Shown piece after piece: positions 3,480 through 34,227 of a stretch of 64,000 nt of DNA. The notes beneath the pieces are model-generated. The model saw only the letters and a list, made by a program, of their open reading frames with translations. It searched no databases and was not told where the DNA came from. The translations under genes were made by a program, and so were the position numbers. The DNA lies in the NCBI RefSeq assembly GCF_041886205.1, contig NZ_CP169029.1, one strand, 5' to 3'. The stretch is from Escherichia coli. GTDB lineage: Bacteria; Pseudomonadota; Gammaproteobacteria; Enterobacterales; Enterobacteriaceae. Numbering within the stretch: position 1 is the stretch's first letter; each line of letters opens with the position of its first letter.

Positions 3480-5693
3480 CTGTTACTGCACCAGTACCGT
3501 TTTAACAGGTGCACCCGACCCTAGTACTGCTCGCATATCCGGCGTATCCGGGGGGTGAATCTTTCGGCATCAGGCGTCATCCGGTGCGGGATCGTCGAGG
3601 CTGCCACAGTTCCAGTTAATCAACTGGCGCAGTCACCGTTCACCTGCTCGACTCACCCTGCCAGAGTGAATGTGCGTGCCGTTGAGAAAGATTGCTGCCG
3701 TCCTTCGTCAGCACCAGCCTTGCCTCACCACAGCAGAGCTCCAGATGCCACAGGCGAGATAAACTCGCGGTCTGCCCGTGTGTCAGTCCTTCATTCGTCT
3801 TCTACCACCGGTGAAAGGCGGCGTGATTCCCCACATTGACGTCTGTAGCCCAGCCCGACCCTGAACCAGTGATCCGAAGCAGCCCTGCCTGTGAGGACTG
3901 CAACAGACGCCACCGAGGTGTGGTCGTAATGCCGCCTACCGTCGTCTGGTACGCCCACCGTCAGCGCACGAACGAGTCGCCACCGTTTCCACTCTGAACA
4001 GAACCCACGTTGATGATCTGGTTACCGCCCACCGTCTCCACACTGGTTCATCCCCCACTCGTCTGTATCTGATTAACGCCAATGTTCTGGATCTGGTTAT
4101 TGGTACCGGCGATCGCCTGGTTGTTGCCAATGGTCTCGGCATGGTTGTTTATCACATCCGTGGTGCGGTTATTCAGCACCTCAGGTGTTCATCTGTCTTC
4201 TGCGCGTGGATGTAGACCTGTTCTTTCCCTGTCGCATCGTCAAACTTCAGTTCATTAAACCCGCTGCCCGTATACGTTTTCGAGCGGATGGTCATCTGCG
4301 TCTTCGTTCCGGCAGGCTGCCGGGTGTGCGGTTTTCCTGGTGGTAGGTACGCCCCATAATGATCGGCTGGTCCGGATCGCCGTTGAGGAAGTCCACAATC
4401 ACCTCCTGACCCACACGCGGTATCGCCAGGTGGCCAAAACCGGTGCCTGCCCACGCCTGTGCCACACGGATCCAGCACGAACTGTCTTGGTCTGCCGGGT
4501 TATAACGGTCCCAGTTGAACTTCACCCGCACGCGACCATGTTCGTCGCAGAAGATTTCCTCGCCTGCCGGTCCTGTCACGACAGCGCTCTGCGGGCCGTC
4601 AACCAGCGGTTTCAGCAACGGCTGTGGTCGCCATGTTCTGTCTGCCGGGATCACCGCAAAATGGTTATCCAGCGCCGTCCCCGCTCCCTGCCGTCCTGGC
4701 ACCGCCTGTGGCTGTTCGCCGTGCAGTTCACTTGCCACCACCTGCCATTCCCGGTTCAGGTTCGCCTGCGGATGCCCCGTCAGCACAATTCGCCGTCCCG
4801 GCCATATCTCCGGCGAGCGGCTTGTTCCCCGCGCGGTTTCTGCGTTGTTGCGCCAGCCGTCCATCTGCCAGCGGGCAAAGTTCTGCCCGTGGGCACTCTC
4901 GAAACGTCCGGGGTAGTCATACACTTCATACTGCGTGCGCTGGTAGTCCTGGTGCTGGCCTTCCTGTTCAAAACGTCCGGCCCAGCCGGGTCGCTTAAAG
5001 GTGTAGTCTTTGTGTTCACCACGGAAGAAGGGCGGATTTGTGCGCTGTAGCGGAACTGGCTGATGCAGAGGGTGCTCACCTCGGTACGGGTGTTCGGATT
5101 CCAGGGATTTCAAAAGATTCGGGCAGATAACGCGACTGTGTCGCACAGCACCAGGCTCTGGTCGGTACTTTTGTAAGCATGCTCCTCATAAAAGAAGATG
5201 CCTTCCTCCGCCGCCATCCGGCACAGGAAATCGTAATCAGTCTCACCGTACTGGACACAAAACTCACGGGAAGGATGCGGCTCGCTGAACAGCGGACTCC
5301 ATTCGGTCACCCCGTTTTCCTGCAACATCGTGCCGAGGATGCTTTCGATGTCCTCGTTCTGGAAGATACGGAAGTTCTGGCGCAGACCGGCACGCCACAG
5401 CGGCGGGTGCACCTTCATGCTGTACAGCATCTGGTTTTTGTCGTTCTCCCCCAGTTCAAACCAGGTCACCACACCTTCACCCGGCGCTGTACGTCATCGC
5501 CCTGCCATACCGTCAGGTAGGCCATTTTGTCCAGCACCTGCGCAAATTCAAGGGAGAGAAACTGCTGGCTGACCAGAGAGAGATCGAGGGAAAAAAGCGA
5601 AGAGAGTGACTGGTTCAGATGAAAGGAAACCACCGCAAACGCATCCGGTGGCAGGCCGTCCACTTCCAGTGTGAAACGTAATCCGGTTGACAT
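3480..5693 (-). pseudogene. vgrG: VgrG spike protein (TssI), frameshifted; 3' end approximate
   Basis: Fragments at 5466-5693, 5110-5472, 4292-5146 and 4173-4478 (minus) read MSTGLRFTLEVDGLPPDAF..., ...GRTYHQENRTPGS..., MTIRSKTYTGSGFNELKFDDATGKEQVYIHAQK, matching VgrG gp27/gp5 modules; frames differ between fragments. Confidence 0.8.
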
Positions 5694-5850
5694 AGCAACC
5701 TCTGGGGTTAGGAAAAACAGACAGTTCGCTGTTAAAGCGGCTGTGACAGTACAGTGTTACGCTTGCGTTCAGGCACGCTACCGCCGAGTTTTCCGGCAGT
5801 CGCCATCTCCCTTGCTAGTACCCTAACTGACAACCTTTTTTTTATGGTGT

Positions 5851-5890
5851 AATACAAAAACAGCATCCGGCCTGATAGCCGGATGCTGTT
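5851..5890 (-). terminator. Rho-independent terminator immediately downstream of hcp, upstream of vgrG
   Basis: Inverted repeat cagcatccggc / gccggatgctg (5861-5888) with 6 nt loop, followed on the minus strand by a T-run (A-run 5851-5860 on plus). Confidence 0.55.
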
Positions 5891-5898
5891 GGCTTAAC

Positions 5899-6425
5899 TT
5901 ATGCTTCCAGCGGTGCGCGCCAGTCGTCGGCACCGGAGGTGCCAGATTTGACGTGTTCCCATTCAATTTTCGCGGTAGGCCAGTGAAACTTCGAGCAACT
6001 GGGTGAACTCGCGTTTCGCCGGGTCCTGGCAATGCGGCATATGCAGTTCTCATATCGCCAATCGTCGAATCAGTCAGGCGGGGAGCGAGATAGTGCTCCT
6101 GTTTGCCTTCCACAGAGGTACGCCACCAGTGAAGTTCAGCGGTTGGGCAGCATTTCGCCGGAGGCCAGTGCGTTGTACATCAGCGGAACCGCTTTGTTCA
6201 GCGCCACGGTAAAAATGAAAGGCTTGTGAGCGCACGCTGACCCGCAGGCTGACCGGACTGAGGATCGGTCCGCACAGATAACGTTATGCAGGAATTCCTG
6301 CACCAGCATCTCCGTCTTCGTGCCCCTGCACATAGATGTTGCCGACAGAATCAGCGGTAAATGCACCTGCAGTAATATTTCCCTGGGTCTGACCAGTGAT
6401 GGAAGATATAACACGGTGTTGGCAT
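5899..6425 (-). pseudogene. hcp: Hcp (TssD) tube protein, frameshifted
   Basis: Minus-strand translation from 6425 begins MPTPCY... and ends ...PLEA*; internal fragments ...EMLVQEFLHNV...HKPFIFTVALNKAVPLMYNALASGEML and VEGKQEHY...LTDSTIGDMRT match the Hcp family; length 527 nt is not a multiple of 3. Confidence 0.8.
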
Positions 6426-7134
6426 TTGTAAACTCCTTGTTAACGTGGTTAATTACTACTTACAATGACCTGCCGTTAATCCCAGACAGGCAGATGCAGC
6501 TCACTTCACGGAACCGCATCATTTTTCAGTATTTTTTACATACAAACCGAGCTAGAATTTACGGTTGTCGTAAAAACTATTTTTAAAATCATTACATAAC
6601 TCTCATTCAGCAAATAACTTAATAATATATATCTGGATAGCCATACCCAACTGTTCAAAGTCCGTATTGCCTCCATAAAATGGCCAACAGCGCGAACCAA
6701 CTGAAAATAAATATTGTATTTATCCTTTCTGAATTATCATTTTGATAATTTTTGAAGATATTCCTTAAAAATACCCACTTAATCAATCACAGTAAACACA
6801 TGTATAAATAAGCAATCATTAGATTAGCTCATGTTTAATGAAATTATTATATACTTCAATAAGTTACATAAAAAATCTATATTTAAATTATTGCCATAAT
6901 ACACCTGACGCGAATTGCACAGGTTCACACAATCTATTTAACGCTTGCAGAATACCCCTCTTTACCATCGATAAAAAGTCCTTTTCTTATTTATTTTGAA
7001 GCGTAAAATGCGGGGTGATGAAGGAGCTGGTGATTTTATTTTCACCGCCATTAGGGCGGCATTGCCGATATTTTTTTGCGGTACAAATATGCCGTGTTCA
7101 TGGCCTGTACGAGATAACATGACGGATTACTTTT
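6426..7134. promoter_or_regulatory. AT-rich divergent intergenic region between hcp-vgrG-rhs (minus) and tssB operon (plus); presumed promoters
   Basis: ~700 bp non-coding, visibly AT-rich compared with flanking genes; sits between divergently oriented T6SS genes; no specific promoter elements verified. Confidence 0.35.
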
Positions 7135-7646
7135 ATGAGCAAAAAATTTGAAGGCAGCGTCGCGCCTCGCGAGCGTATTAACATATCGTATGTCCCAAAA
7201 ACAGATGGCCAGACGGCTGAAGCGGAACTTCCGCTTAACATGCTCGTTGTCGGCGATACCGGAAATACGCAGGAAAACATCCCCACTGGATGAACGTCAG
7301 GCAGTTTCCGTTAACAAGCACAATTTCGGTGCAGTGATGGCTGAAGCAGCCATTGGCCTCAATTTTACTGTCCCCGCCACGCCTGAAGGGAAGCACAACA
7401 GACGATGAACTGAATGTGGCGCTGAATATCAAATCACTGGAAGCTGACTCTTTCACCAGATAGCGTGGCCCGGCAGGTTCCGGGAAGCGAGTAGTAATCG
7501 CTGGAACTGCGTGAAGCACTGACTGCACTGAAGGGGCTCGGCTGGGTAAACCTTCCGGCATTCCGTACCCAGCTCCAGGCATTGCTGGAAAATGAAGAGT
7601 CCCGCGAGCAGTTGCTCAAAGAAATCGGTCTGGTGAGCAATAAATA
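7135..7646 (+). pseudogene. tssB: TssB (VipA) small sheath subunit, frameshifted
   Basis: Translation from ATG 7135: MSKKFEGSVAPRERINISYVPKTDGQTAEAELPLNMLVVGDTGNTQENIP then stop; continues in another frame as LDERQAVSVNKHNFGAVMAEAAIGLNF; TssB-family N-terminal signature. Confidence 0.75.
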
Positions 7647-7958
7647 ACCACCACGATTCCATTAAACAGGGTTATCCAGGACATGACGGCACACAAAAAT
7701 ATCTCCGGGACATACCACCTCTCTGTTGCAGACATTCTGCAGGTGCTTTACCAGGTATGTTTCAGCCCGTCCGTTGAAATCAACCAGGACTGGTGTGGCT
7801 GCGCTGATTACAACACTGGATCGCCGTATCAGTGATCTATTGGATGAGATTATCCATTTTTGTGAGTTTCAGCAGAGCGCGTCGCACTGGCAGCGCGTAC
7901 TTCACTGATGGCGAAAGGCCGGTTCCAGAAACACAGCTAAAACAGAAGGATTTTCAGT

Positions 7959-9461
7959 ATGTCTTTACAGGAAGAGGAACTCTGTTCCCAGTCATGCCGG
8001 GCAGCCTGGAGCAGGCATCGTCGCTGCTTGATCAAATCATGGCACAGACCCGTATTCAGGCCCGGTTCGGAAGGTTATGACGTTGCCCGCCAGGGTGTGA
8101 CAGCCTTTATTGCCAGCATCCTGCAATCCACTGCATCTGCCGAACCGGTCAATAAACTGGCCGTGGACAGCATGATTGCAGATATTGATGAACGCATCAG
8201 CCGCCAGATGGATGTCATCATCCAGGGCGCGCCTGCCTTTCAGCAGGTCGAATCGTTCTGGCGCTCACTGAAAACCATGGTGGATCGCGTTGATTTCCGT
8301 GAAAACATCAAGGTCAACGTGCTTCATGTCACCAAAGCAGGGAACTTCTGGAAGACTTTGAGTTTGCGCCAGAAATTATTCAGTCCGGATTTGATCAAGC
8401 ACGTTTATTCGTCCGGATTCGGACAGTTTGGCGGTGAACCCATCGCTGCCGTGCTGGGCGCTTATGAGTTCAAAAATACCGCGCCTGACATGAGACTGTC
8501 GGCAAGACGCCAGTGCCGTGGGCGCAACGGCGCACGCACCGTTCCTGTCCTCCGTTTCCCCGGCGGAGTTTATGGGGCTGAACTCGTGGACCGAACTGCC
8601 TAATATCAAAGATCTTTATGCCATCTTTGAAGGTCCGGCCTACACCAAATGGCGCGCCCTGGCGTGACTCGGAAGATTCGCGCTGGATTCAGGGCTTACG
8701 GCACCCCGTTCTTCCTGCTTCGCCAGCCCTGGTCACCAGCAGATAACCCTGTTAAGAAGCTTTAACTATCACGAAGATGTCAGCCAGAACCACGAAGATT
8801 ATCTGTGGGGTAATACGGCCTGGATGCTGGCATGCAATATCGCAGACAGTTTTGCCGAATACCGCTGGTGTCCAAACATTATCGGCCCGCAAAGCGGCGG
8901 CGCGGTGAAAGATCTGCCGGTGCATCTGTTCGAAACGATGGGGCAGATTCAGGCCAAAATCCCAACCGAGGTGCTGGTCACCGATCGCCGCGAATTTGAA
9001 CTGGCTGAAGAGGGTTTTATCACCCTGACCATGCGTAAAGACTCTGATAATGCAGCCTTTTTCTCTGCAAACTCGGTACAAAAACCTGAAGCACTTTCCG
9101 GGAAAAGATGCAGAAACCAACTATAAGCTGGGTCTGCAGTCTCCCTGATCTCTTCATCATCAACCGGTTAGCGCACTACATCAAGGTGTTGCAGCGTGAA
9201 CATACTGGGGTCATGGAAAGAAAGGAGCGACTTAGAGAGGGCAGCTCAGACACCCTGGATCCGTCAGTATGTTGCCGACCAGGAAAACCCGCCGGACGGA
9301 CGTGCGCAGCCCGCAAACCTCTGCGCGCAGCCAGAGTTGAGGTTATGGATGTGGAAGGCGAACCCGGCTGGTACCAGGTTGCGCTAAGCGTGAGGCCTCA
9401 TTTTAAATTTATGGGGGCAAATTTTGAGCTTTCCCTGGTCGGCCGGTTAGACAGGGAGTAA
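7959..9461 (+). pseudogene. tssC: TssC (VipB) large sheath subunit, several frameshifts
   Basis: Fragments SLLDQIMAQTRIQ, EGYDVARQGVTAFIASIL, PVNKLAVDSMIADIDERISRQMDVIIQGAPAFQQVESFWRSLK and C-terminal ARVEVMDVEGEPGWYQVALSVRPHFKFMGANFELSLVGRLDRE match TssC; pieces are in three frames. Confidence 0.8.
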
Positions 9462-9466
9462 CACAC

Positions 9467-9893
9467 CATGAGAGTACCGGATCGGGAAAAGAACCACAGG
9501 TTCTCTTTTTTGAGCGTATGGAAGCCTCTTCGGCCAGAAACCGGGCAGGGAGGCAGTATTCATTCGCTCAGGCAATCCATTCGCCAGAACCTGACGAAAC
9601 ATTCTGAGTACCCGGTCCGGTAGTTGCCGGGGTGCGCCTGAGCTGGGCATTGATGAACCGGAAGGGGCTGAAAACTTCCGCGAATCCATGAGTCGGGCCA
9701 TCGAGCAATGTATAGAACGCTATGAACCCCGGATCTCACACGCTGAAGTGCAGGCAGTGGTTTCATCCGCCTCCAGCCCGCTGGATACGGCTGCTTCATA
9801 TTACAGCCTGGGTGACATTTCAGTCTGAAACGCATGAGGTGCTTGAATTTGATATGGCACCGAATGCAGCCAGCATTACCGGGTGGACTGACA
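9467..9893 (+). pseudogene. tssE: TssE baseplate (gp25-like) protein, frameshifted; assignment from position and size
   Basis: ~140-codon gene slot between tssC and tssF starting ATG 9467 (MRVPDREKNHRFSFLSVWKPL...); frame is interrupted; identity based mainly on synteny. Confidence 0.45.
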
Positions 9894-9894
9894 A

Positions 9895-11701
9895 ATGGAA
9901 TTTGAAGAACGCTATTTCCGGGAAGAACTCGATTACCTGCGCCAGCTGAGCAAGCTGCTCGGCAATGGATCTATCTGGCCCGCTTCCTGGCCGAAAAAGA
10001 TGCGGATCCGGATATCCAGAACGCCTGCTGGAAGGGGTGGGGCGTCTTTCTTAACCGGCAATCTCCGCCAGAAAATTGAGGATGAATTCCCAGAACTGAC
10101 GCACGGGCTCAATCAAAGATGCTATGGCCTGATCACCTGCGTCCGGTTCCTGGCAATGACCCTTGATCTATATACGCCGGATATGGATAAGTCTTCTGTA
10201 CCGGTGTTAATCCCCTCGTAGACTCAGCAGTTGAACATACCAACGCCGGGGAAATCAGAGTTGATGAAGTGCTGCCCTCTGATGCTAAAAAGGAGGAGCC
10301 GCCTCCCCTGTACCTTCAGCCCTCTGCCGGGATATCAGGCTGCTGGCCCGTTCGCCTGGAGCAGATTGACTGCAGTACGACCCGTAATGGTGTTATCATA
10401 CATCACCCTTTCGGTTCGCACCGGAAACGGACTTCCGCACGCTGGATCTGAACAAACTTCGCTTCTGCCGCTCGGCAATGACGACAACTATACCCGTGAC
10501 CAGCTTTATTTATGGTTCTGCGAATACTTGCAGGGTGCCGACCTGACTGTGGGTGAACAGCATATTCGCCTGCCTGAGTTTATGCTAAAAGCTGTCGGTT
10601 TTGAGCCGCAGGACGCCATGCTGGCCCTGGCCTGAAAAACGTCCACAGCGGCTACCGGATCCTTCAGGAGTATTTCCGTTACCCCGATGCGTTTCTCTTT
10701 TTTGATCTTTGTGGTTGTCCGGCTTTGCCTGACGGATTGCAGGCGGAATTCTTTACCCTGCAACTGCGTTTTTCGCGCCCTTTGCCCGTGGACATCCGGC
10801 TGCGCCGCGATTCCCTGCGCCTGTATCGCGCACCTGCCATTAATTTATTTATCCACCATGCAGAAGCCATCACGCTGGACAAACCGGCGGGCAAGACTAT
10901 CCGCTGGTTCCCAGCCGCCATTACCCACAACATTACGATGTATTTTCCGTTAACAGTGTGGTGAGCCAGGTCCAGGATATGTTCAGGAAAAAAGATCTGG
11001 GGCGTCCTGTTTCGACGCAGGCCGCGCGCCAGTGGCCAGCCTTTGAAAGTTTCAGCCATCAGATGGAATACAGCCGGAAGCGGGAAGTGGTGTACTGGCA
11101 ATCACCGGACCAAAACATCCCTGTTCCATCGCGGCTTTGATCATACCCTTGCCTTTATACATGCTGATGGCAGTTATCCGTCAGACGAATCTTCTCGCTC
11201 GAGTAAATGAAGTGGTTTCGGTATCGCTGACCTGTACCAACCGTGAGCTTCCGTCACAAATACGTTCCGGGCGATATCACCGGCACAACCGGTAAAAATG
11301 CGGCTGTTGCTTCATTTCGCAACATTACCCGCCCGACGCAACCACTCTGGCCGGTCATTGACTGGCAGCCTGCACTGGTCCCTGCTCTCCGCCATGAACC
11401 TGAATTATCTGTCATTACTGGATACGGACGCGCTGAAGCAGCTCATCGCCAGTCTTTGATCGCCACGCAATCCATCATCCGCAGACGGCACGGCTGTCAC
11501 AACAAAAGCTGGATGCCATTGAGCGTCTGGAGACCCGCCCCGTTGATCGCCTGTTTACGGGTATTCCCGTCCGGGGACTTGGCCTCCACGCTGTATCTGC
11601 ACCCGGAGCCGTTTGTCTGTGAAGGGAAATGTATCTGCTCGGTACGGTGCTTTCGCATTTTCTGTCGCTGTACGCCAGCGTTAACTCATTCCACATGCTG
11701 A
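9895..11701 (+). pseudogene. tssF: TssF baseplate protein, several frameshifts
   Basis: N-terminus MEFEERYFREELDYLRQL is the conserved TssF start; ~600-codon span fits TssF; ORF pieces at 9895-10221, 10231-10635, 10725-10964, 11243-11701 in different frames. Confidence 0.7.
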
Positions 11702-11729
11702 CCGTTGTGAACACAGAAAGCCAGGAGAC

Positions 11730-12817
11730 ATGGAAATGGACGGAAAGAATCGGGCAGCATCCTCTTATCTGAGTCCGGGAAATCCCCCGGCAGATAAAGA
11801 GCAGAATGATCCGCTGGCACAGGTTTTCCATAATGCCTGCTCTTACAATTTTTTTGCGATGGCGGGCTCGTTGCACCGCCTGGCAAAGGGTGAAAGGGGA
11901 CGCCAGAATTATCCCTGCGTGACGATCCGGCACAGGAAACCCTGCGTTTCAGCGCCGATGCCAGCCTTGCCTTCCCGTGCAGTGATATCAGTGCACTGAA
12001 ACGGGATACGTCAGGGGCATTCAGGATGACCACCACCTTTATGGGGTTACAGGGGAGCCAGTCGCCTCTCCCCGGTTATTACCTCGATCACCTGGCCTGG
12101 AAAGCGGTACATGAACAAAGTCCGGTAGGTGATTTTCTGGATATGTTCAGCCACCGCCTGACCCAGTTTGTCTGGCATATCTGGCGTAAGTACCGCTATC
12201 ACATCAGTTTTCGTAACGGCGGTGTGGATGCGTTCTCGCAGCGCATGTACTCCCTTGTCGGGCTGGGCCACCGCCAGCTTCGCGATAAGCTGGCGATTAA
12301 TCACAGCAAAATGCTGGCGTATTCCGGGATCCTGGCAAATCCGGGATGATCCCCGGAAATAATCTGTGGCCTGGTGTCCCACTGCTTTGATTTGTCAGAA
12401 GTGACGCTGCAAAACTGGCAACGTCGCAAGGTGGATATTGAACCGGATCAGCAAAATAGTCTGGGGAGCTATTCTCTTAAAAATGGCGAAAAACTGGCGG
12501 GAAGATCGGTACTGGGCAACTTTGTTCTGGGTACACGAGTGCCCGATCTCAGCGGAAAATTCCAGCTCAGTATTACCAGCCTGACCCGAAAACAGTTCCT
12601 CTCTTTCTGCCGTCTGGCGAAAACTTCCTGCCACTGACGATGTTCGTGTCCTTCATCCTGCGCGATCAGCTTGCCTGGGACTTACATCTGGGGCTGGCGC
12701 CGGAGCAGGTGGGCGCAATGCGCCTGGGCGATAACAAAAGTGCGCTGCTGGGCTGGACCAGCTTCCTCGGCACACCGGAAGAACGACCCTCAGTCACCAT
12801 CAGGGTACGGTCGTAAA
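11730..12817 (+). pseudogene. tssG: TssG baseplate protein, frameshifted
   Basis: Follows tssF; N-terminal fragment contains LAQVFHNACSYNFF (TssG-like YNFFQ motif region); ~360-codon slot; pieces at 11730-11999, 12026-12349, 12374-12637 in different frames. Confidence 0.55.
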
Positions 12818-26593: not shown

Positions 26594-26616
26594 TTATTTA
26601 ATTAAAGGAGATTATC

Positions 26617-27099
26617 ATGGCAAATATAAGTTATTTATCTTTGAGTGGAGAGACACAAGGGCTGATTTCAGCAGGTTGCTCAACGCTTGATTCTGTCGGA
26701 AACAAAGCGCAGCCAGAACATAAAGATCGAGATCATGGTTTATGCGTTAATGCATTCCATCTCAAGAAGTCAAAATGTCAATCATCATGAATTAATTATC
26801 ACCAAACCGGTTGATAAATCCTCACCATTGCTGGCAAAAGCACTTAGTGACAATGAAAAAATGGCAATATGTGAATTTATACTCTACCGAACCAGTAAAG
26901 CGGGTATTTACCAGCCTTATTATAAAATAAATCTGTCAAAAGCCCGAATATCAAGTATTGATTTTGTCACACCGCATGCTGTCCTGGAAAAGAACTGGAA
27001 CCACAGGAGAGAATTGCCTTTATTTATGAAGATATTTCCTGGGAGCATACGTTAGCCGGTACGAATGCAATGAGTAAATGGCAGGATCGTGTACAGTAA
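26617..27099 (+). pseudogene. hcp: Second Hcp (TssD) copy, two apparent frameshifts
   Basis: Strong RBS (aaggag) then MANISYLSLSGETQGLISAGCSTLDSVGNKAQPEH; continues in other frames as ...SISRSQNVNHHELIITKPVDKSSPLLAKALSDNEKMAICEFILYRTSKAG... and ...RIAFIYEDISWEHTLAGTNAMSKWQDRVQ*, all matching Hcp. Confidence 0.8.
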
Positions 27100-27142
27100 C
27101 TTACTGTAATAACATAATAAATTACTATTGCGGAGAGATAAA

Positions 27143-28039
27143 ATGGCTGGTTTAAGGAATAACAACAACACACAGAATGCACAGTGGGCTGATTATGTGG
27201 GTGACATTCTTCGGGGGGCTCAGCCGATAAACCAGCTAGTACCTCAGCACCCTTATCTTAACGACGTCCCACTCATTGATGAGTTAAGGCATCAGAACAC
27301 TCATCATGTTATTCTCTTGACACTTGATGTTGCAAAAAAAATACTCAGCCCAATAACATCATTTGATTACATTCATTTTATCACTACACATCCTTCAGGT
27401 ATAAAAGATACACTCGCCTGGTTAGTTAACGCGGGTAAATTAATGACTGAGTTTGATGACAATGGGAAAATTATATTTAACCTTAATGCCTTAAAGTATA
27501 CAAAAGCAAGTTACTTTGAAATACTTGGAGAGAAATATATAAAAATCACAACATCCAGCCCCTGGCTTTTAGAAAAGCTCGGTAAATATATTTTCTCTTC
27601 ACGAGCGCCTCAAGTTCTGGAACTCGCTATTGGCTGGCGAGGAGCTTTATCTGAATCAATAAAAGGAGTTAAGTTCTGTATCTGGTTTTCAGTAGCCTGG
27701 AGAACCATAGAATTTATTATGAGTTCAGAGCGAGATCTGGTTAATTTTCTTGGCGATTTTTCAATGGATGTGGCCAAAGCAGTTATAGCCGGTGGTGTTG
27801 CAACCGCTATTGGAAGCCTGGCTTCTTTTGCCTGTGTTAGCTTTGGCTTTCCAGTAATTCTTGTCGGAGGAGCAATTTTACTGACAGGGATAGTGTGTAC
27901 AGTTGTTTTAAATGAAATCGATGCTCAATGCCATTTATCAGAAAAATTAAAATATGCAATTAGAGATGGACTAAAACGGCAACAGGAACTTGATAAATGG
28001 AAAAGGGAAAACATGACTCCATTTATGTATGTTCTTTAA
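27143..28039 (+). CDS. Hypothetical protein with C-terminal glycine-zipper transmembrane hairpin; candidate Hcp-linked membrane-targeting effector
   Basis: Intact ORF (frame opens at 27128; ATG 27143 has a better RBS ggagag); AT-rich; C-terminal hydrophobic helices AVIAGGVATAIGSLASFACVSF and FPVILVGGAILLTGIVCTVVL; immediately downstream of hcp2. Confidence 0.6.
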   Translation: MAGLRNNNNTQNAQWADYVGDILRGAQPINQLVPQHPYLNDVPLIDELRHQNTHHVILLTLDVAKKILSPITSFDYIHFITTHPSGIKDTLAWLVNAGKLMTEFDDNGKIIFNLNALKYTKASYFEILGEKYIKITTSSPWLLEKLGKYIFSSRAPQVLELAIGWRGALSESIKGVKFCIWFSVAWRTIEFIMSSERDLVNFLGDFSMDVAKAVIAGGVATAIGSLASFACVSFGFPVILVGGAILLTGIVCTVVLNEIDAQCHLSEKLKYAIRDGLKRQQELDKWKRENMTPFMYVL

Positions 28040-28067
28040 CACTCCACCCGTGATATGAGGATTAACC

Positions 28068-28433
28068 ATGCGTTTACATGTTAAATTAAAAGAGTTTCTT
28101 TCGATGTTTTTTATGGCCATATTATTTTTCCCTGCATTCAATGCTTCTTTGTTTTTTACCGGAGTTAAACCTCTATATTCAATAATAAAATGCTCCACGG
28201 AAATATTTTATGATTGGAGAATGTTGATTCTGTGCTTTGGTTTCATGTCGTTTTCCTTTTTAAATATTCATGTAATTTTACTTACGATAATAAAATCATT
28301 CTTAATCAAAAAAACGAAGGTAGTCAATTTCGCCACAGACATAAACAATACAGCTAACTCTTATATTTTTACTAATAGCTATCGTAATAGCACCTTTAAT
28401 AGCTCCTTTTGTCACAGGATATGTCAATGCTAA
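28068..28433 (+). CDS. Small hypothetical inner-membrane protein (121 aa); candidate immunity protein
   Basis: Intact ORF with RBS (gagga) and two hydrophobic segments (FFMAILFFPAFNASLFF; MLILCFGFMSFSFLNIHVILLTII); directly follows the putative effector gene. Confidence 0.5.
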   Translation: MRLHVKLKEFLSMFFMAILFFPAFNASLFFTGVKPLYSIIKCSTEIFYDWRMLILCFGFMSFSFLNIHVILLTIIKSFLIKKTKVVNFATDINNTANSYIFTNSYRNSTFNSSFCHRICQC

Positions 28434-28703
28434 TTATCACCCCTGCGGTAATAATGCGGGGATTTTCCCAGCGAGCAATCTGATATTAAAAATGGCATGA
28501 AATGTAGTAACTGAATATATTTCTCGCAAGGAAGATTCAGCAGTTAAATAACTAAATATTCTAAAACAAACAGTTTTTAACTCCGGTATTCCATGTCCTT
28601 TCTTGCACTGTCTTTGTCAAGAAAGATTTCTTATGCAAAGAATTTTGTATTATTGCCGCCCAGAGATTCCTGGCGGCAGATAGAATCTATTATTGATAGC
28701 GAG

Positions 28704-29486
28704 TTAACCAAATCTTTTCACCATCGCTTTATAGGTCTTTTGCTTAAGTTGCATGATTTGCTGCTCTGTCATATCAGTCGTACTGGCTTCATTCTTGTCG
28801 GGCAATGGTGGAAGCACTTTATATTCATACTTCACCGGCGACCAGGTACGTAGCCCACTCACCTGTTGCCACATCCACCAGCGTGAAACGTACCAGGTAG
28901 CGCAGGGAGATAGCGTCGGTGAGTTTTTCATTTTTATAGTCGGACCATACTGTTGATTTCAGCGCAGAGTCATATTTTCCTGTCTGCAACGTATCCTGGA
29001 AAACAATAATCGCTTTCTGATGCCCTTTTGCAGCCCACAAAACGCAGTGCCTGCATCCAGTTCATATTCTCAGCACTGGCAACATCCTCGTTCTCATTTT
29101 TATCTTTGTTTTTGTTACAAGTCAGAGGCTTTTGCCTGTCCGGGATACTCAGAAAAGAACGTGGAAACAGTATAATATTTTCGCATCTCCTCCTGCATAA
29201 TGGTTTCCGGTGCGCGGTTGCCGGATTGAACAAGTATTACAGGAGAATTAAGGGGAACGCGGAACTCATCTCCATCAAGCGCAGCTTGAATATCCTCTTC
29301 GGATACGGCCAGAGTGGTTTCATTACCGAATAAATCTTTGTCTGTCAGTTGCTGGGGAGTGTTTTTATTAATATTACTTTGTGTGACTTGAGCTTTTTTC
29401 TTCTTTTCATCAATAGAAGATTCAGAGGCACATCCTGCAAGCAGCGAGAATAACACACATATGCAACAAAGCTTTTTTGAATTCAT
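28704..29486 (-). pseudogene. yafT: Lipoprotein YafT-like gene adjacent to aspV, frameshifted
   Basis: Minus-strand ORF from 29486 begins [21 protein letters not shown] (lipobox); continues in other frames down to 28704 (~261 codons total); position next to tRNA-Asp as for K-12 yafT. Confidence 0.65.
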
Positions 29487-29752
29487 AATTGGACACTCCC
29501 TCGCCTGTCATAATCATGGTAATGTTTAGCTAACGATTTTTAATTATATACTCCACTTGAATCAGAACAAACAAAAATAACAGTATATATAAATTCATTA
29601 AATCAATAGAAAAATGAAAATCATAACATTCAAATATATTTAAATTGAATGATTCGATAGTATGATTAAATATTAATGATATGGTCTACCATATGTGATT
29701 AACACATTTACAGCATAACAAAACCATAGACCGAAGAAATAGCGGGATTTAA

Positions 29753-30025: not shown

Positions 30026-30757
30026 TTATGCCCGCCAGAGGCAGCTTCCGCCTTTCTTCTGCACCAGATCGAGACGGGCTTCATGTGCTGCAAGCTCGTC
30101 ATCTGTCGCAAAAACAACGCGTAACTTACTTGCCTGACGTACAATGCGCTGAATTGTTGCTTCACCTTGTTGCTGCTGTGTCTCTCCTTCCATCGCAAAA
30201 GCCATCGACGTTTGACCACCGGTCATCGCCAGATAAACTTCCGCAAGGATCTGGGCATCGAGTAATGCCCCGTGCAGCGTTCGTTTACTGTTATCTATTT
30301 CGTAGCGGGCACATAACGCATCGAGGCTGTTGCGTTTACCGGGAAACATTTTCCTCGCCACCGCAAGGCTATCGGTGACCTTACAGAAGGTATTAGTCTT
30401 CGGAATATCGCGCTTAAGCAACGAGAACTCGTAGTCCATAAAGCCGATATCGAACGCTGCGTTATGGATCACCAACTCCGCGCCGCGGATATAGTCCATG
30501 AACTCATCGGCTACTTCGGCAAACGTGGGCTTATCGAGCAAAAATTCATCGGCAATACCATGTACGCCAAAGGCTTCCGGATCCACCAGCCGATCGGGTT
30601 TGAGATAAACATGGAAGTTATTGCCCGTCAGGCGACGGTTCACCACTTCAACGGCCCCAATCTCAATGATCTTGTGGCCTTCATAGTGCGCACCAATCTG
30701 GTTCATACCGGTGGTTTCGGTATCGAGAACGATCTGGCGTGTAATTGCAGTGCTCAT
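30026..30757 (-). CDS. dnaQ: DNA polymerase III epsilon subunit (3'-5' proofreading exonuclease)
   Basis: 243 aa from [19 protein letters not shown]...; DEDDh exonuclease motifs; divergent from rnhA as in E. coli. Confidence 0.95.
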
Positions 30758-30821
30758 AGCGGTCATTTATGTCAGACTTGTCATTTTACAGTTCGATTCA
30801 ATTACAGGAAGTCTACCAGAG

Positions 30822-31289
30822 ATGCTTAAACAGGTAGAAATTTTCACCGATGGTTCGTGTCTGGGTAATCCTGGACCTGGGGGTTACGGCGCTATTTTAC
30901 GCTATCGCGGACGCGAGAAAACCTTTAGCGCAGGCTACACCCGCACCACCAACAACCGTATGGAGTTGATGGCCGCTATTGTCGCGCTGGAGGCGTTAAA
31001 AGAACATTGCGAAGTCATTTTGAGTACCGACAGCCAGTATGTCCGCCAGGGTATCACCCAGTGGATCCATAACTGGAAAAAACGTGGCTGGAAAACAGCA
31101 GACAAAAAACCAGTAAAAAATGTCGATCTCTGGCAACGTCTTGATGCTGCATTGGGGCAGCATCAAATCAAATGGGAATGGGTTAAAGGCCATGCCGGAC
31201 ACCCGGAAAACGAACGCTGTGATGAACTGGCTCGTGCCGCGGCGATGAATCCCACACTGGAAGATACGGGCTACCAAGTCGAAGTTTAA
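30822..31289 (+). CDS. rnhA: Ribonuclease HI
   Basis: 155 aa from [28 protein letters not shown]...; the ORF track's upstream extension overlaps dnaQ and is rejected. Confidence 0.95.
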
Positions 31290-32008
31290 GCCTGTGGTTT
31301 ACGACATTGCCGGGTGGCTCCAACCGCCTGGCGAATTCGTGGCTTGTTTTTACTCTGTTTCATCGGATTTAGCGTTAAAGGAATAGTCCGTTTCCGGGCA
31401 ACAATAAGTTGTAAGCAACCAAGCGCAGGAATATGCGCATTCAATAGTTTTCCTCCGTGTTTGTTCCACGGGAGAACGTGGAAACGGCTGGCGTGTAGCA
31501 CTTCAAAATTCAACAAAGAGAGCCAGTCCAGTTGCCGCATCAGAGTAAACATCCGGCTGTTATAGGGCGAGGTTTTTCGCAATACCGGCACAAGTTTGCG
31601 TAATCCCATTAAACTGATGGGATTGAAGCCACTAATCACCAGCCAGCCATCATCAATCAGTACCCGATCGGCTTCACGTAATAAACGATGCGGATCGGTG
31701 CACCACGGCAATGTATGTGCCAGTAGACAAACATCAACGGATTTATCGGCAAAAGGAAGATGAAGTGGATCCGCCTGCACCTGGACGGGCATTCCTTGCG
31801 CAGAAACATTCACTTGATGAGAAACCGCGCACGCTTCGCAATTGATTTCTGCGCTTAAATTGCCAATCTTAAGCAGATGAAAACCATACATTTTAGTGAA
31901 CCACGGGTTGAGCTGGCGCTCCAGCGCCTTGCGATAAAGCTCTCCCCAGGGCAAATCGCCCCAGCGATCAGGAGCCACGACAGTTTGAGGGACTCTTGCC
32001 GGTTTCAT
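31286..32008 (-). CDS. yafS: SAM-dependent methyltransferase YafS
   Basis: ORF 31286-32026 minus; start chosen at MKPARVPQ... (240 aa); synteny between rnhA and gloB. Confidence 0.85.
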
Positions 32009-32038
32009 CACAACCTTCCGTTTCACACTGAGAGGTAA

Positions 32039-32797
<759 letters not shown>

Positions 32798-32868
32798 TAA
32801 AACTTTCTTGTCATCGGCTCCGTTCGCCGTTATGATCGGTCGTCTTTTAAGCAACTATTGACACACAC

Positions 32869-34227
32869 ATGAAGGCAAAAGCGATATTACTCGCCTCTGT
32901 CCTGCTCGTGGGTTGCCAGAGTACCGGCAACGTTCAACAGCACGCACAGAGCCTTTCTGCAGCTGGTCAAGGGGAAGCAGCAAAGTTTACAAGTCAGGCA
33001 CGATGGATGGACGATGGGACGTCTATCGCGCCAGATGGTGACTTGTGGGCTTTCATTGGCGACGAGCTAAAGATGGGAATTCCGGAAAATGACCGGATTC
33101 GCGAACAGAAACAGAAATATTTACGCAATAAGAGCTATCTCCACGATGTAACTTTACGGGCAGAGCCGTATATGTACTGGATAGCCGGGCAAGTTAAAAA
33201 ACGTAACATGCCTATGGAACTGGTACTACTACCCATAGTGGAGAGCGCTTTTGATCCTCACGCAACGTCTGGCGCCAATGCCGCAGGCATCTGGCAGATC
33301 ATTCCGAGCACGGGGCGCAATTATGGTTTGAAACAGACCCGCAATTATGACGCGCGTCGCGATGTTGTTGCTTCAACAACTGCCGCGCTGAACATGATGC
33401 AGCGTCTGAACAAGATGTTTGACGGCGACTGGCTTCTGACCGTAGCGGCTTATAACAGCGGCGAAGGTCGGGTCATGAAGGCAATTAAAACGAACAAAGC
33501 GCGTGGGAAATCCACGGACTTCTGGTCGTTACCGTTGCCGCAGGAAACGAAGCAGTACGTGCCTAAAATGCTGGCATTGAGTGATATTCTCAAAAACAGC
33601 AAGCGTTATGGCGTACGTCTGCCAACGACCGATGAAAGCCGTGCTCTGGCGCGTGTGCACCTGAGCAGCCCGGTTGAAATGGCGAAGGTTGCAGATATGG
33701 CGGGGATTTCCGTCAGCAAGCTGAAGACATTCAACGCTGGCGTGAAAGGCTCCACGCTGGGCGCAAGTGGCCCGCAGTACGTGATGGTGCCAAAGAAGCA
33801 TGCAGATCAACTGCGTGAATCTCTGGCTTCAGGCGAAATTGCTGCTGTACAGTCGACGCTGGTTGCCGACAATACGCCGCTTAACAGCCGTGTTTACACC
33901 GTACGCTCTGGCGACACGCTTTCAAGTATCGCTTCACGTCTCGGCGTAAGCACCAAAGATTTGCAGCAGTGGAACAAACTGCGCGGATCTAAGCTGAAGC
34001 CAGGCCAAAGTTTGACGATTGGTGCAGGCAGTAGCGCACAGCGGTTGGCAAACAACAGCGATAGCATTACGTATCGTGTGCGCAAAGGCGATTCGCTTTC
34101 AAGCATTGCTAAACGCCACGGCGTGAACATCAAAGATGTGATGCGCTGGAACAGCGACACTGCGAATCTGCAACCAGGCGATAAGCTGACGTTGTTTGTG
34201 AAAAACAACAACATGCCAGATTCCTGA
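32869..34227 (+). CDS. mltD: Membrane-bound lytic murein transglycosylase D
   Basis: 452 aa; lipoprotein signal (LLVGC), transglycosylase domain and C-terminal LysM repeats (YTVRSGDTLSSIA..., YRVRKGDSLSSIA...). Confidence 0.93.
   Translation: MKAKAILLASVLLVGCQSTGNVQQHAQSLSAAGQGEAAKFTSQARWMDDGTSIAPDGDLWAFIGDELKMGIPENDRIREQKQKYLRNKSYLHDVTLRAEPYMYWIAGQVKKRNMPMELVLLPIVESAFDPHATSGANAAGIWQIIPSTGRNYGLKQTRNYDARRDVVASTTAALNMMQRLNKMFDGDWLLTVAAYNSGEGRVMKAIKTNKARGKSTDFWSLPLPQETKQYVPKMLALSDILKNSKRYGVRLPTTDESRALARVHLSSPVEMAKVADMAGISVSKLKTFNAGVKGSTLGASGPQYVMVPKKHADQLRESLASGEIAAVQSTLVADNTPLNSRVYTVRSGDTLSSIASRLGVSTKDLQQWNKLRGSKLKPGQSLTIGAGSSAQRLANNSDSITYRVRKGDSLSSIAKRHGVNIKDVMRWNSDTANLQPGDKLTLFVKNNNMPDS

What the first reader, a model, noticed from the sequence alone, without database searches (positions are those of the whole stretch)
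6426..7134. AT-rich divergent control region with an inverted GATAAT repeat resembling a Fur box
The ~700 bp region between hcp (minus) and tssB (plus) is markedly AT-rich, as expected for xenogeneic-silencer-bound (H-NS type) promoters of horizontally acquired operons. At 6732-6750 aattatcattttgataatt carries two inverted GATAAT-like hexamers, resembling a Fur operator. Iron/Fur control of enterobacterial T6SS clusters has been reported. I found no GATC sites in this region on a manual scan.
Basis: partly seen in the sequence, partly recalled or inferred. Interest (0 to 1): 0.4.

Follow-up and report, generated by a model that had tools for sequence, protein, structure and literature searches.

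The report
H-NS-silenced T6SS promoter region, doubtful Fur box
This is the already described AT-rich, H-NS-silenced two-way promoter region between the hcp and tssB genes of the E. coli type VI secretion cluster 2, and its neat 19-base palindrome looks like an iron-regulator (Fur) site by only one loose measure, so it is most likely ordinary.

Summary
Window 6426-7134 lies between hcp (-) and tssB (+). It is 34% GC against about 52-54% in the flanks. It holds a perfect 8-3-8 palindrome at 6732-6750 and has no GATC.

The region is the divergent promoter of the E. coli T6SS-2 cluster on the aspV island. It is 97-100% identical in about 2,230 complete E. coli genomes, including O157 Sakai. Published work on EDL933, a different O157:H7 strain, shows that deleting hns raises hcp and tssB transcripts.

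The Fur half is not supported.
- A weight matrix built from 17 verified K-12 Fur sites, which themselves score 11-28 bits, gives the palindrome 4.6 bits.
- 94.5% of composition-matched shuffles reach that score, and other AT-rich DNA in the window does too.
- The arms point outward, the reverse of Fur's 7-1-7 site.
- The left arm is not kept in E. albertii, and the palindrome is absent from Citrobacter, Yokenella and the B2/APEC allele.
- It lies 316 and 394 bp from the two start codons.

Fur is not excluded. The loose (NATWAT)x3 match is 17/18, reached by 1.1% of shuffles. The validated EAEC sci1 Fur boxes also score only 4.0-4.6 bits on my matrix.

The parts
6426..7134 (.). Intergenic divergent control region between hcp (-) and tssB (+) of the T6SS-2 (aspV-island) cluster. 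It is the same allele as O157 Sakai; published work on EDL933 calls it 't6sP'.
   Evidence: Annotation of matching E. coli records and alignment. GC is 0.339.
6501..7000 (.). AT-rich core (70% AT), the predicted tract for H-NS binding and spreading.
   Evidence: It is the most AT-rich 500-bp window of the 64 kb (profile). The mean for H-NS ChIP peaks is 61.4% AT (PMC2094087). The hns-deletion phenotype in EDL933 comes from the literature.
6732..6750 (.). Perfect 8-3-8 palindrome AATTATCA-ttt-TGATAATT, the putative 'Fur box'.
   Evidence: Fur M9 PWM 4.6 bits; shuffles; NATWATx3 17/18. The right arm TTGATAATTT matches the H-NS motif tCGATAAATT at 8/10.
6706..6727 (-). Block conserved perfectly between clean E. 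coli and E. albertii (ATGAATAAATATTGTATTTATCC). It contains a -10-like TACAAT on the minus strand (6718 to 6713). The paired -35-like ATGATA (6740 to 6735) overlaps the left arm of the palindrome.
   Evidence: Promoter-like scan (5 hits against 3.9 expected, so not significant). Alignments. Exact-match scan of metagenome contigs.
6948..7010 (+). tssB-proximal block conserved across four genera and both E. coli alleles: AGAATAC...TCGATAAAAAGT.CTT.TC...GCGTAAAATG. I infer it to be the core tssB promoter (-10-like TAAAAT at 7004-7009, an A-tract in UP-element position, a poor -35).
   Evidence: Alignment A3 with invariant columns and A2. The promoter assignment is inference.
6968..6977 (+). Best match to the H-NS high-affinity motif (TCGATAAAAA, 11.0 bits; the proV sites score 11.4).
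   Evidence: PWM built from the 11 sites in Table 1 of Lang et al. 2007.
7016..7134 (+). Putative structured tssB leader, if transcription starts just after the -10-like element.
   Evidence: The folded stretch was 7016-7140, i.e. this leader plus the first six bases of tssB. RNA fold -37.7 kcal/mol, z = -2.86, 0 of 200 shuffles fold as well. The consensus structure from 5 orthologues is weak.
6470..6493 (-). Inverted repeat in the hcp leader (CTGCC...GGCAG), kept in all lineages compared.
   Evidence: Alignments. Single-sequence fold z = -1.3.
5899..6425 (-). hcp, frameshifted in this window.
   Evidence: 97.0% identical to Sakai hcp, with 7 gap runs, all not multiples of three.
7135..7647 (+). 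tssB, frameshifted in this window.
   Evidence: 94.7% identical to Sakai tssB, with 9 gap runs, 8 of them not multiples of three. The ORF list shows only 52 aa from the ATG.

Best explanation
The region is the bidirectional promoter and silencing region of the E. coli T6SS-2 cluster.

Proposed mechanism. H-NS binds the roughly 500-bp, 70%-AT tract. It probably nucleates at motif-like sites such as TCGATAAAAA (6968-6977). It then spreads over both divergent promoters and keeps the hcp-vgrG-rhs and tssB-tssM operons off until unknown signals relieve it.

The core tssB promoter most likely sits in the cross-genus conserved block at 6948-7010, about 260 bp from the palindrome.

The 6732-6750 palindrome is most likely an incidental AT-rich dyad, at most part of the H-NS-preferred sequence or of a minor hcp-direction promoter. 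It is probably not a working Fur operator.

Shown here: the composition, the identity of the locus, the PWM and shuffle statistics, and the conservation pattern. Taken from the literature: de-repression in hns mutants. Inferred: H-NS nucleation sites, promoter positions, and the non-function of the palindrome.
For: Locus identity.
- The intergenic region is found in 2,235 of 5,426 complete E. coli genomes at 97.3-100% identity.
- The palindrome is present in O157 Sakai.

H-NS.
- The core is 70% AT, the window maximum.
- H-NS-motif hits run at 4.2 per kb against 0.79 per kb in the rest of the window.
- In EDL933, hns deletion raises hcp 60-fold (PMC5363993).
- It also raises tssB and hcp3 mRNAs and the reporters in both directions (PMC13141884).
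- The related APEC T6SS2 cluster is de-repressed in an hns mutant (PMC5874247).

Against a Fur operator.
- My PWM reproduces the published Ri values. Verified sites score 11.2-28.3 bits, and 8.1-27.8 bits when left out of the model.
- The palindrome scores 4.6 bits, and its hexamer-register offsets score 2.1, 1.2 and 3.9 bits.
- 94.5% of 2,000 shuffles reach 4.6 bits, and the mean shuffle maximum is 9.2 bits.
- The clean E. coli intergenic region reaches only 6.5 bits.
- Other AT-rich DNA in the window gives 5.3-8.1 hits of at least 4.6 bits per kb, against 5.8 per kb here.
- The classical 19-mer match is 12/19, below the mean shuffle maximum of 12.3.
- The arms read ATTATCA-N3-TGATAAT, whereas Fur's site is TGATAAT-N-ATTATCA (direct reading; models summarised in PMC2189734).
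- The left arm is changed at 3 positions, with a 4-bp insertion, in E. albertii. One arm-breaking change occurs in L002.
- The palindrome is absent from C. youngae, Yokenella and the B2 allele.
- Within E. coli it is no more conserved than the average 19-nt window.
- A 2023 review lists Fur control only for E. coli T6SS-1.
Against: - (NATWAT)x3 matches 17/18. That occurs in only 1.1% of shuffles.
- It is the only match of at least 16/18 in the 64-kb window.
- It equals the best of the 14 verified K-12 Fur sites I scored this way (gpmA 17; the others 14-16). In 72.6 kb of K-12 DNA the only hit of at least 17/18 is that true gpmA site.
- The validated sci1 Fur boxes score only 4.0 and 4.6 bits on my PWM, and the whole sci1 promoter reaches only 7.3 bits. 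A low PWM score therefore does not exclude function.
- The left arm coincides with the -35-like hexamer of a minus-strand promoter-like site whose -10 lies in a block conserved in E. albertii. A repressor bound there would be well placed.
- Direct H-NS binding to this DNA has not been shown in the papers I could read.
- H-NS motif hits are not enriched over composition-matched shuffles (27% of shuffles reach the observed count).
- The APEC 'no Fur effect' result comes from an allele whose intergenic region is unalignable with this one.
Confidence: 0.7

Rival explanations
1. The palindrome is a genuine low-affinity Fur operator, comparable to the weak sci1 boxes. Fe-Fur bound there could repress a distal hcp-direction promoter by covering its -35. 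Alternatively it could act from upstream by competing with H-NS, as described for ftnA. Either way it would link iron to T6SS-2.
For: - NATWATx3 matches 17/18, reached by 1.1% of shuffles, unique in the window, and equal to the best verified K-12 site scored.
- Four overlapping PWM positions above 0 bits lie 3, 3 and 6 nt apart over 6729-6759.
- Validated sci1 boxes score the same 4.0-4.6 bits and 12-13/19.
- The left arm overlaps a -35-like ATGATA paired with a conserved TACAAT.
- C. youngae has GATAATGATAAAAAG (7.7 bits) near the aligned position, and E. albertii has an 18.4-bit hit elsewhere in its intergenic region.
Against: - The PWM score is indistinguishable from AT-rich background.
- The half-sites are everted, and each lacks its partner half (offsets -9 and +9 score -4.0 and 3.9 bits).
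- The dyad is not kept in E. albertii or in other lineages.
- It lies 316 and 394 bp from the start codons and about 263 bp from the conserved tssB -10-like element.
- No iron or Fur effect was seen on APEC T6SS2.
- None of the conditions tried in EHEC induced the cluster.
- No Fur site was reported by Virtual Footprint.
Confidence: 0.12
2. The dyad, or only its conserved right half TCATTTTGATAATTTTTGAGATA, is the site of another dimeric regulator or anti-silencer, or a promoter element of one of the several start sites reported in this region.
For: - The right arm and its flank form a 23-nt block identical in E. coli and E. albertii. It sits next to a 35-nt identical block, while the linker between the two blocks is rearranged.
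- Several transcription start sites are reported for this divergent promoter (Kim et al. 2022, as cited in PMC13141884).
- CpxR binds the hcp2B promoter of the APEC allele.
- The EHEC authors state that the factors displacing H-NS are unknown.
Against: - I recognised no known E. coli factor motif that fits ATTATCA-N3-TGATAAT (from my own knowledge, not a database scan).
- The block is not alignable in Citrobacter, Yokenella or the B2 allele.
- Promoter-like hits are not above the shuffle expectation (5 against 3.9).
- Within E. coli there is no extra constraint.
Confidence: 0.15

Closest known systems
EHEC O157:H7 T6SS bidirectional promoter 't6sP' between hcp3 (Z0265/ECs0234) and tssB (PMC13141884; PMC5363993; Kim, Lee and Yoon 2022, J Microbiol 60:928, which I could not read)
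   Same: I take it to be the same locus and allele. The palindrome is present in O157 Sakai, and the intergenic region is 97-100% identical across E. coli. It has the same divergent hcp/tssB layout. It is repressed by H-NS and silent in vitro.
   Different: I compared the window with Sakai, not with EDL933 itself. The window copy differs by 28 private changes and sits among frameshifted T6SS genes. Nobody has reported a Fur site there. [quoted passage not shown]
EAEC sci1 (T6SS-1) promoter with two Fur boxes overlapping GATC/Dam sites (Brunet et al. 2011, PMC3145626)
   Same: It is a T6SS tssB-upstream region in E. coli with AT-rich, weak-consensus Fur-like 19-mers (12-13/19; 4.0-4.6 bits on my PWM, the same as the palindrome).
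   Different: The sci1 boxes lie at -77 and -141 from the start codon, and one covers the -10. They overlap GATC sites and were validated by FURTA, EMSA and a fur mutant. Here the dyad is more than 300 bp from both start codons, no GATC overlaps it, and there is no genetic evidence. It is a different T6SS family and the sequences are unrelated.
APEC/ExPEC T6SS2 hcp2B-vipA2 divergent region (Ma et al. 2018, PMC5874247; Yi et al. 2019, PMC6534853)
   Same: It has the same architecture, with a 705-bp intergenic region at 32% GC. Hcp is 94% identical. It is de-repressed in an hns mutant.
   Different: TssB is only 54% identical, and the intergenic region is unalignable except near both ends. It has no palindrome, and its best Fur PWM hit is 7.4 bits. 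It was shown not to respond to iron or Fur, and CpxR binds its hcp2B promoter.
Canonical E. coli Fur operators (fepA-fes, entC, cir, fhuA, ryhB and others; Chen et al. 2007 M9 model)
   Same: Both are AT-rich with GATAAT/ATTATC hexamers and a 19-nt dyad.
   Different: Canonical sites score 11-28 bits, read AATGATAAT-N-ATTATCATT, and overlap core promoters. This dyad has the G and C positions swapped inward and scores 4.6 bits.
H-NS silencing of Salmonella SPI-6 T6SS (Brunet et al. 2015) and other xenogeneic islands
   Same: An AT-rich promoter region of a horizontally acquired T6SS is silenced by H-NS.
   Different: It is a different cluster. I did not analyse SPI-6 here; the comparison rests on citations within the papers I read.

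Membership tests
Fur operator (Fur box) | PWM or information score within the range of experimentally verified E. coli Fur sites | tested here: not met
   The palindrome scores 4.6 bits, against 11.2-28.3 bits for 17 verified sites (8.1-27.8 when left out of the model). Caveat: the validated sci1 boxes score 4.0-4.6 bits.
Fur operator (Fur box) | Score exceeds composition-matched background | tested here: inconclusive
   PWM: 94.5% of shuffles reach 4.6 bits, and the hit density equals that of other AT-rich DNA in the window. Classical consensus: 12/19, below the shuffle mean of 12.3. By contrast, NATWATx3 at 17/18 occurs in only 1.1% of shuffles.
Fur operator (Fur box) | 7-1-7 / 9-1-9 inverted repeat TGATAAT-N-ATTATCA (G and C 12 bp apart) | tested here: not met
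   The sequence reads ATTATCA-N3-TGATAAT, with C and G only 6 bp apart. The registers that use each arm as a half-site score -4.0 and 3.9 bits.
Fur operator (Fur box) | Overlaps the -35/-10 of the regulated promoter | tested here: inconclusive
   It lies about 263 bp upstream of the conserved tssB -10-like element and 316/394 bp from the start codons. It does overlap the -35-like hexamer of one weak minus-strand promoter-like site. I could not obtain mapped transcription start sites.
Fur operator (Fur box) | Conserved in orthologous promoters | tested here: not met
   The left arm is lost in E. albertii, and the dyad is absent from C. youngae, Yokenella and the B2 allele. Within E. coli there is no excess conservation.
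Fur operator (Fur box) | Iron- and Fur-dependent expression, and Fur binding in vitro or in vivo | not testable with these tools
   The literature has a negative result for the APEC T6SS2 allele. I found no test on the EHEC-type allele.
Fur/Dam epigenetic switch (sci1 type) | GATC site inside the Fur box or core promoter | tested here: not met
   There is no GATC from 6267 to 7818 in the window. The reference E. coli GATCs lie near 6966 and 7128, not in the dyad.
H-NS-silenced xenogeneic promoter region | AT content at or above that of H-NS-bound regions (mean 61.4% AT) | tested here: met
   The core is 70% AT over 6501-7000, the window maximum. The reference value is from PMC2094087.
H-NS-silenced xenogeneic promoter region | Presence of high-affinity H-NS motif (tCGATAAATT-like) | tested here: inconclusive
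   TCGATAAAAA at 6968-6977 scores 11.0 bits, and four sites match the consensus at 8/10 or better. The counts are not above shuffles (27% and 16% of shuffles reach them).
H-NS-silenced xenogeneic promoter region | Horizontally acquired, variably present island | tested here: met
   The cluster lies in the island beside tRNA-Asp aspV. It is present in 2,269 of 5,426 complete E. coli genomes.
H-NS-silenced xenogeneic promoter region | De-repression in hns mutants, and H-NS occupancy | not testable with these tools
   The literature reports a 60-fold rise in hcp in EDL933 hns, and raised mRNAs and two-way reporters. I found no direct binding data.

The most novel reading that the evidence does not exclude
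The palindrome is a real low-affinity Fur site of the same weak class as the sci1 boxes, which a PWM built from K-12 sites cannot see. It would couple iron to the otherwise 'uninducible' T6SS-2 of EHEC-type E. coli. It could do this by occluding a distal hcp promoter. Alternatively Fe-Fur could counter H-NS from an upstream position. That could explain why no single laboratory condition switches the cluster on.
Probability: 0.1. Interest if true: 0.45.

Novelty: already known. Interest (0 to 1): 0.15.

Why it matters
If the Fur reading were true, it would give a concrete, testable signal (iron) for a T6SS that EHEC researchers have been unable to switch on in vitro.

As the evidence stands, the region is the known H-NS-silenced divergent promoter, and the dyad adds nothing firm.

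The useful by-products are methodological and local:
- A Fur PWM built from verified K-12 sites cannot separate weak validated T6SS Fur boxes from AT-rich background.
- A cross-genus conserved block at 6948-7010 is a better candidate for the core tssB promoter and regulator site than the palindrome.

Tried and rejected
- Rfam scan of 5800-7700 at E-value up to 1 found nothing.
- The best PWM hit in the window's intergenic region (10.8 bits, 6700-6718) was rejected. It lies in a window-private patch (6688-6705) and drops to 6.5 bits in clean E. coli, and 27% of shuffles reach it anyway.
- I tried to use the APEC 'no Fur effect' result as direct evidence. I downgraded it, because the APEC/B2 allele (L018) is unalignable in the intergenic region and its TssB is only 54% identical.
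- The genome-contig scan with TssB gave only 4 loci.
- The metagenome scan anchored on the conserved block gave 76 contigs, nearly all E. coli: 73 of 75 had an intact dyad, one had a 1-nt spacer deletion, and one was of the E. albertii type. It therefore had little power.
- Kim et al. 2022, which mapped start sites in this very promoter, is not held. The supplements of the Sy et al. 2020 dRNA-seq paper are not held.
- Two literature searches for iron or fur transcriptomics touching EHEC T6SS found nothing relevant.
- Small ORFs in the intergenic region (for example 6838-6999 and 6996-7151) were rejected. They are broken by indels in E. coli references or deleted in E. albertii.
- I compared the dyad by eye with known motifs (IHF, Fis, ArgR, RcsAB, FNR, CpxR, SlyA). 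None was convincing. This rests on my own knowledge, not on a database scan.
Full report
**1. What is in the sequence**

Window 6426-7134 is the gap between a minus-strand hcp and a plus-strand tssB. This follows from alignment to annotated E. coli 2013C-3277 (L001) and O157:H7 Sakai (L019).

The gap is 33.9% GC, against 54.3% and 51.5% in the flanking kilobases. Positions 6501-7000 are the most AT-rich 500 bp of the whole 64-kb window, at 70% AT against a median of 46%.

At 6732-6750 the sequence reads AATTATCA-ttt-TGATAATT, a perfect 8-nt inverted repeat with a 3-nt spacer. It occurs only once in the window. There is no GATC between 6266 and 7819.

**2. Is it more than chance?**

As a palindrome it is not. 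Of the dinucleotide-preserving shuffles of the region, 19% contain a perfect inverted repeat of at least 8 nt with a loop of 10 nt or less, and 12% with a loop of 3 nt or less.

The absence of GATC is also unremarkable. Shuffles average 1.42 sites and 23% have none. Reference E. coli have two GATCs here. The window lacks both through private single-base changes.

**3. Identity of the locus**

The intergenic region occurs in 2,235-2,269 of 5,426 complete E. coli genomes. It is always single copy and 97.3-100% identical to the STEC reference.

It belongs to the T6SS island that begins just after tRNA-Asp aspV, as in O157 Sakai. Sakai carries the palindrome exactly.

This is the T6SS-2 cluster whose 'unknown bidirectional promoter' (t6sP) between hcp3 and tssB was studied in EDL933 (PMC13141884). 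I compared the window with Sakai, not with EDL933 itself.

**4. The H-NS part of the interpretation**

The composition fits. H-NS ChIP peaks average 61.4% AT (Lang et al. 2007, PMC2094087), and this core is 70% AT.

I built a PWM from the 11 footprinted H-NS sites in that paper. Its best hit is TCGATAAAAA at 6968-6977, at 11.0 bits (the proV sites score 11.4). Hits run at 4.2 per kb here against 0.79 per kb in the rest of the window. This is no more than composition predicts, because 27% of shuffles reach the same count.

The functional evidence is published:
- In EDL933, hns deletion raises hcp about 60-fold, and complementation reverses it (PMC5363993).
- It also raises tssB and hcp3 mRNAs, and both arms of a gfp/mCherry reporter of this very region (PMC13141884).

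I found no direct H-NS binding assay on this DNA.

**5. The Fur part: weight-matrix test**

I rebuilt the single-dimer 19-nt 'M9' model of Chen et al. 2007 (PMC2189734). I used their coordinates for 17 footprinted or gel-shifted K-12 sites, mapped to NC_000913.3. The matrix reproduces their published scores closely (for example gpmA 28.3 against 27.4, ryhB 25.8 against 25.2, fur 11.2 against 12.3). Verified sites score 11.2-28.3 bits, and 8.1-27.8 bits when left out of the model.

The results for the palindrome and its surroundings are:

| Measure | Result |
|---|---|
| Palindrome score | 4.6 bits |
| Registers putting its GATAAT/ATTATC hexamers in the model's hexamer phase | 2.1, 1.2 and 3.9 bits |
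| Shuffles of the region (2,000) reaching 4.6 bits | 94.5% |
| Mean best score per shuffle | 9.2 bits |
| Best score in the clean E. coli intergenic region | 6.5 bits |
| Hits of at least 4.6 bits per kb, other AT-rich (60% AT or more) DNA in the window | 5.3-8.1 |
| Hits of at least 4.6 bits per kb, this region | 5.8 |
| Highest score elsewhere in the window | 12.4 bits |
| Match to the classical 19-mer | 12/19 (mean best shuffle 12.3) |

The reason is visible in the sequence. Fur's dimer site is TGATAAT-N-ATTATCA. Here the arms are everted, ATTATCA-N3-TGATAAT, so the informative G and C are 6 bp apart instead of 12. Each arm also lacks its partner half-site.

**6. Two results that stop me from calling it excluded**

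First, the older and looser hexamer description, (NATWAT)x3, matches at 17/18. Only 1.1% of shuffles reach this. It is the only match of at least 16/18 in the 64-kb window. It equals the best of the 14 verified K-12 sites I scored this way (gpmA 17; the others 14-16). In 72.6 kb of K-12 DNA the only hit of at least 17/18 is the true gpmA site.

Second, I recovered the two experimentally validated Fur boxes of the EAEC sci1 T6SS promoter from the cloning oligonucleotides of Brunet et al. 2011 (PMC3145626). I located them at -141 and -77 from the start codon in an E. coli genome (L020). On my matrix they score 4.0 and 4.6 bits, and the whole sci1 promoter reaches only 7.3 bits.

So a PWM built from K-12 sites cannot tell weak functional T6SS Fur boxes from AT-rich noise. 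The in-silico verdict is 'no positive evidence', not 'disproved'.

**7. Context leans against a Fur operator**

Position. The dyad centre is 316 bp from the hcp start codon and 394 bp from the tssB start codon. The sci1 boxes sit on and next to the core promoter.

Conservation.
- The palindrome is exact in STEC and O157.
- It has an arm-breaking A-to-G change in a near-identical 'Citrobacter' metagenome-assembled genome (L002).
- In E. albertii the left arm has three changes plus a 4-bp insertion.
- There is no counterpart in Citrobacter youngae, in Yokenella regensburgei, or in the B2/ExPEC/APEC allele of E. coli.

Between E. coli and E. albertii, two blocks are perfectly conserved: a 35-nt block ending at about 6727, and a 23-nt block, TCATTTTGATAATTTTTGAGATA. 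The left arm lies in the rearranged linker between them. The conserved unit is therefore not the palindrome.

Within E. coli:
- A 32-mer around the dyad is exact in 2,008 of the 2,235 genomes that carry the region, and shares a 28-nt word in 2,135.
- 73 of 75 metagenome contigs keep the dyad.
- This equals the background, because 40% of 19-column windows of the alignment are at least as invariant.

Literature.
- In APEC, T6SS1 is repressed by Fur, but T6SS2 (clpV2, hcp2B) does not respond to iron limitation or fur deletion and is de-repressed by hns deletion (PMC5874247).
- That APEC allele is not alignable with this one in the intergenic region and lacks the dyad, so this is only indirect evidence.
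[quoted passage not shown] No tested medium activated either promoter.
- A 2023 review lists Fur control in E. coli only for T6SS-1.

**8. What else is in the region**

The strongest phylogenetic footprint is a block at 6948-7010: AGAATAC...TCGATAAAAAGT.CTT.TC...GCGTAAAATG. Its invariant columns are shared by E. coli (both alleles), E. albertii, C. youngae and Yokenella. I infer that it holds the core tssB promoter, with a -10-like TAAAAT at 7004-7009, an A-tract in UP-element position and a poor -35. The poor -35 would fit a need for an activator. This block is about 263 bp from the dyad.

The 125 nt from the inferred start through the first six bases of tssB (7016-7140) fold more stably than any of 200 shuffles (z = -2.86). 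Five orthologues give only a weak consensus structure. It includes pairing of a GYUCAU element with the AUGAGC start region.

On the hcp side, a CTGCC...GGCAG inverted repeat in the leader is kept in all lineages.

One minus-strand promoter-like match (ATGATA-16-TACAAT, 6740 to 6713) uses the left arm of the dyad as its -35. Its -10 lies in the block conserved with E. albertii. However, promoter-like hits are not above chance in this DNA (5 against 3.9 expected). A paper that mapped several start sites here (Kim, Lee and Yoon 2022) was not available to me.

**9. State of the cluster in this window**

Relative to Sakai, the flanking core genes mltD, gloB, yafS, rnhA and dnaQ are 98.8-99.8% identical with no indels. 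The T6SS genes between about 3,500 and 11,800 are different. They carry gap runs against Sakai, mostly single-base insertions in the window, at 1.3-2.1 per 100 bp, in genes and in the intergenic region alike:

| Feature | Gap runs vs Sakai |
|---|---|
| vgrG | 46 |
| tssF | 37 |
| tssC | 21 |
| intergenic region | 11 |
| tssB | 9 |
| tssE | 8 |
| hcp | 7 |

Genes further along have 0-0.5 per 100 bp. Across the 11 features with indels that I examined, there are 146 insertions in the window. The single-base ones are spread evenly over the four bases, and only a third of all insertions extend a run of the same base.

This looks like a low-quality stretch of the assembly rather than biological decay, but I cannot prove that. 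Either way, the 28 window-private differences in the intergenic region, including the loss of both GATCs and the 10.8-bit PWM hit, should not be trusted. The dyad itself is identical to high-quality references.

**10. Verdict**

The finding is a correct description of a known object: the H-NS-silenced divergent promoter region of E. coli T6SS-2.

The Fur-box idea is a reasonable resemblance. It survives only under the loosest model. It is not supported by a calibrated matrix, by half-site geometry, by position, by conservation or by the available literature.

I put about 10-12% on a physiological Fur role, about 15% on the conserved right half being another factor's site or a promoter element, and about 70% on the dyad being incidental within H-NS-bound DNA.

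Novelty: already known. Interest: low.

Noticed in passing
window 3528-11772 (vgrG, hcp, intergenic region, tssB, tssC, tssE, tssF), compared with 30026-34227 (dnaQ to mltD): The T6SS genes carry dense, mostly single-base, base-unbiased insertions relative to O157 Sakai (1.3-2.1 per 100 bp, in genes and in the intergenic region alike), which frameshift them. Genes further along the cluster have 0-0.5 per 100 bp, and the flanking core genes have none. This is probably a low-quality patch of the assembly rather than real pseudogenisation.
   Followed up: partly
window 6966 and 7128: Both GATC sites present in reference E. coli (CGATCGAT and GGATCAC) are removed in the window by private substitutions (G to C, C to T). 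The 'no GATC' observation is therefore strain- or assembly-specific.
   Followed up: yes
window 6948-7010: This is the most conserved block of the intergenic region across E. coli (two alleles), E. albertii, C. youngae and Yokenella: AGAATAC...AAAAAGT.CTT.TC...GTAAAAT. It is a likely core tssB promoter and regulator site, and to my knowledge nobody has described it.
   Followed up: partly
window 7016-7140: The putative tssB leader folds unusually stably (z = -2.86, 0 of 200 shuffles as stable). In orthologues an upstream GYUCAU element can pair with the AUGAGC start region. This may relate to the published observation that tssB mRNA rises without TssB protein appearing.
   Followed up: partly
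window 6470-6493 (minus strand, hcp leader): An inverted repeat CTGCC...GGCAG about 45-70 nt upstream of the hcp start is kept in five lineages. Some changes are compatible only with G-U pairs in the hcp-sense RNA.
   Followed up: partly
L003:1048-1066 (E. albertii) and L004:2617-2635 (C. youngae): E. albertii has an 18.4-bit Fur-PWM hit (ATTAAAAATACTTATCAAT) at -263 from tssB, at a position that scores low in E. coli. C. youngae has GATAATGATAAAAAG (7.7 bits) near the position aligned with the E. coli dyad.
   Followed up: no
L020:1625-1710 (EAEC-type sci1 promoter): The experimentally validated sci1 Fur boxes score only 4.0 and 4.6 bits on a PWM built from 17 verified K-12 Fur sites. Such matrices are therefore blind to this class of weak Fur boxes.
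   Followed up: yes
L018:3026-3730 (E. coli ATCC 11775, B2/APEC-type T6SS2): Hcp is 94% identical to the EHEC-type protein, but TssB is only 54% identical. The 705-bp intergenic region is unalignable except about 60 bp at each end. The two 'T6SS-2' alleles therefore have largely different control regions.
   Followed up: partly
window about 26600-29600 and 32250-32950: There are further AT-rich (at least 61% AT) segments at the far end of the T6SS island and within the mltD-yafS core-gene stretch. They carry Fur-PWM hits up to 12.4 bits (27911-27929).
   Followed up: no
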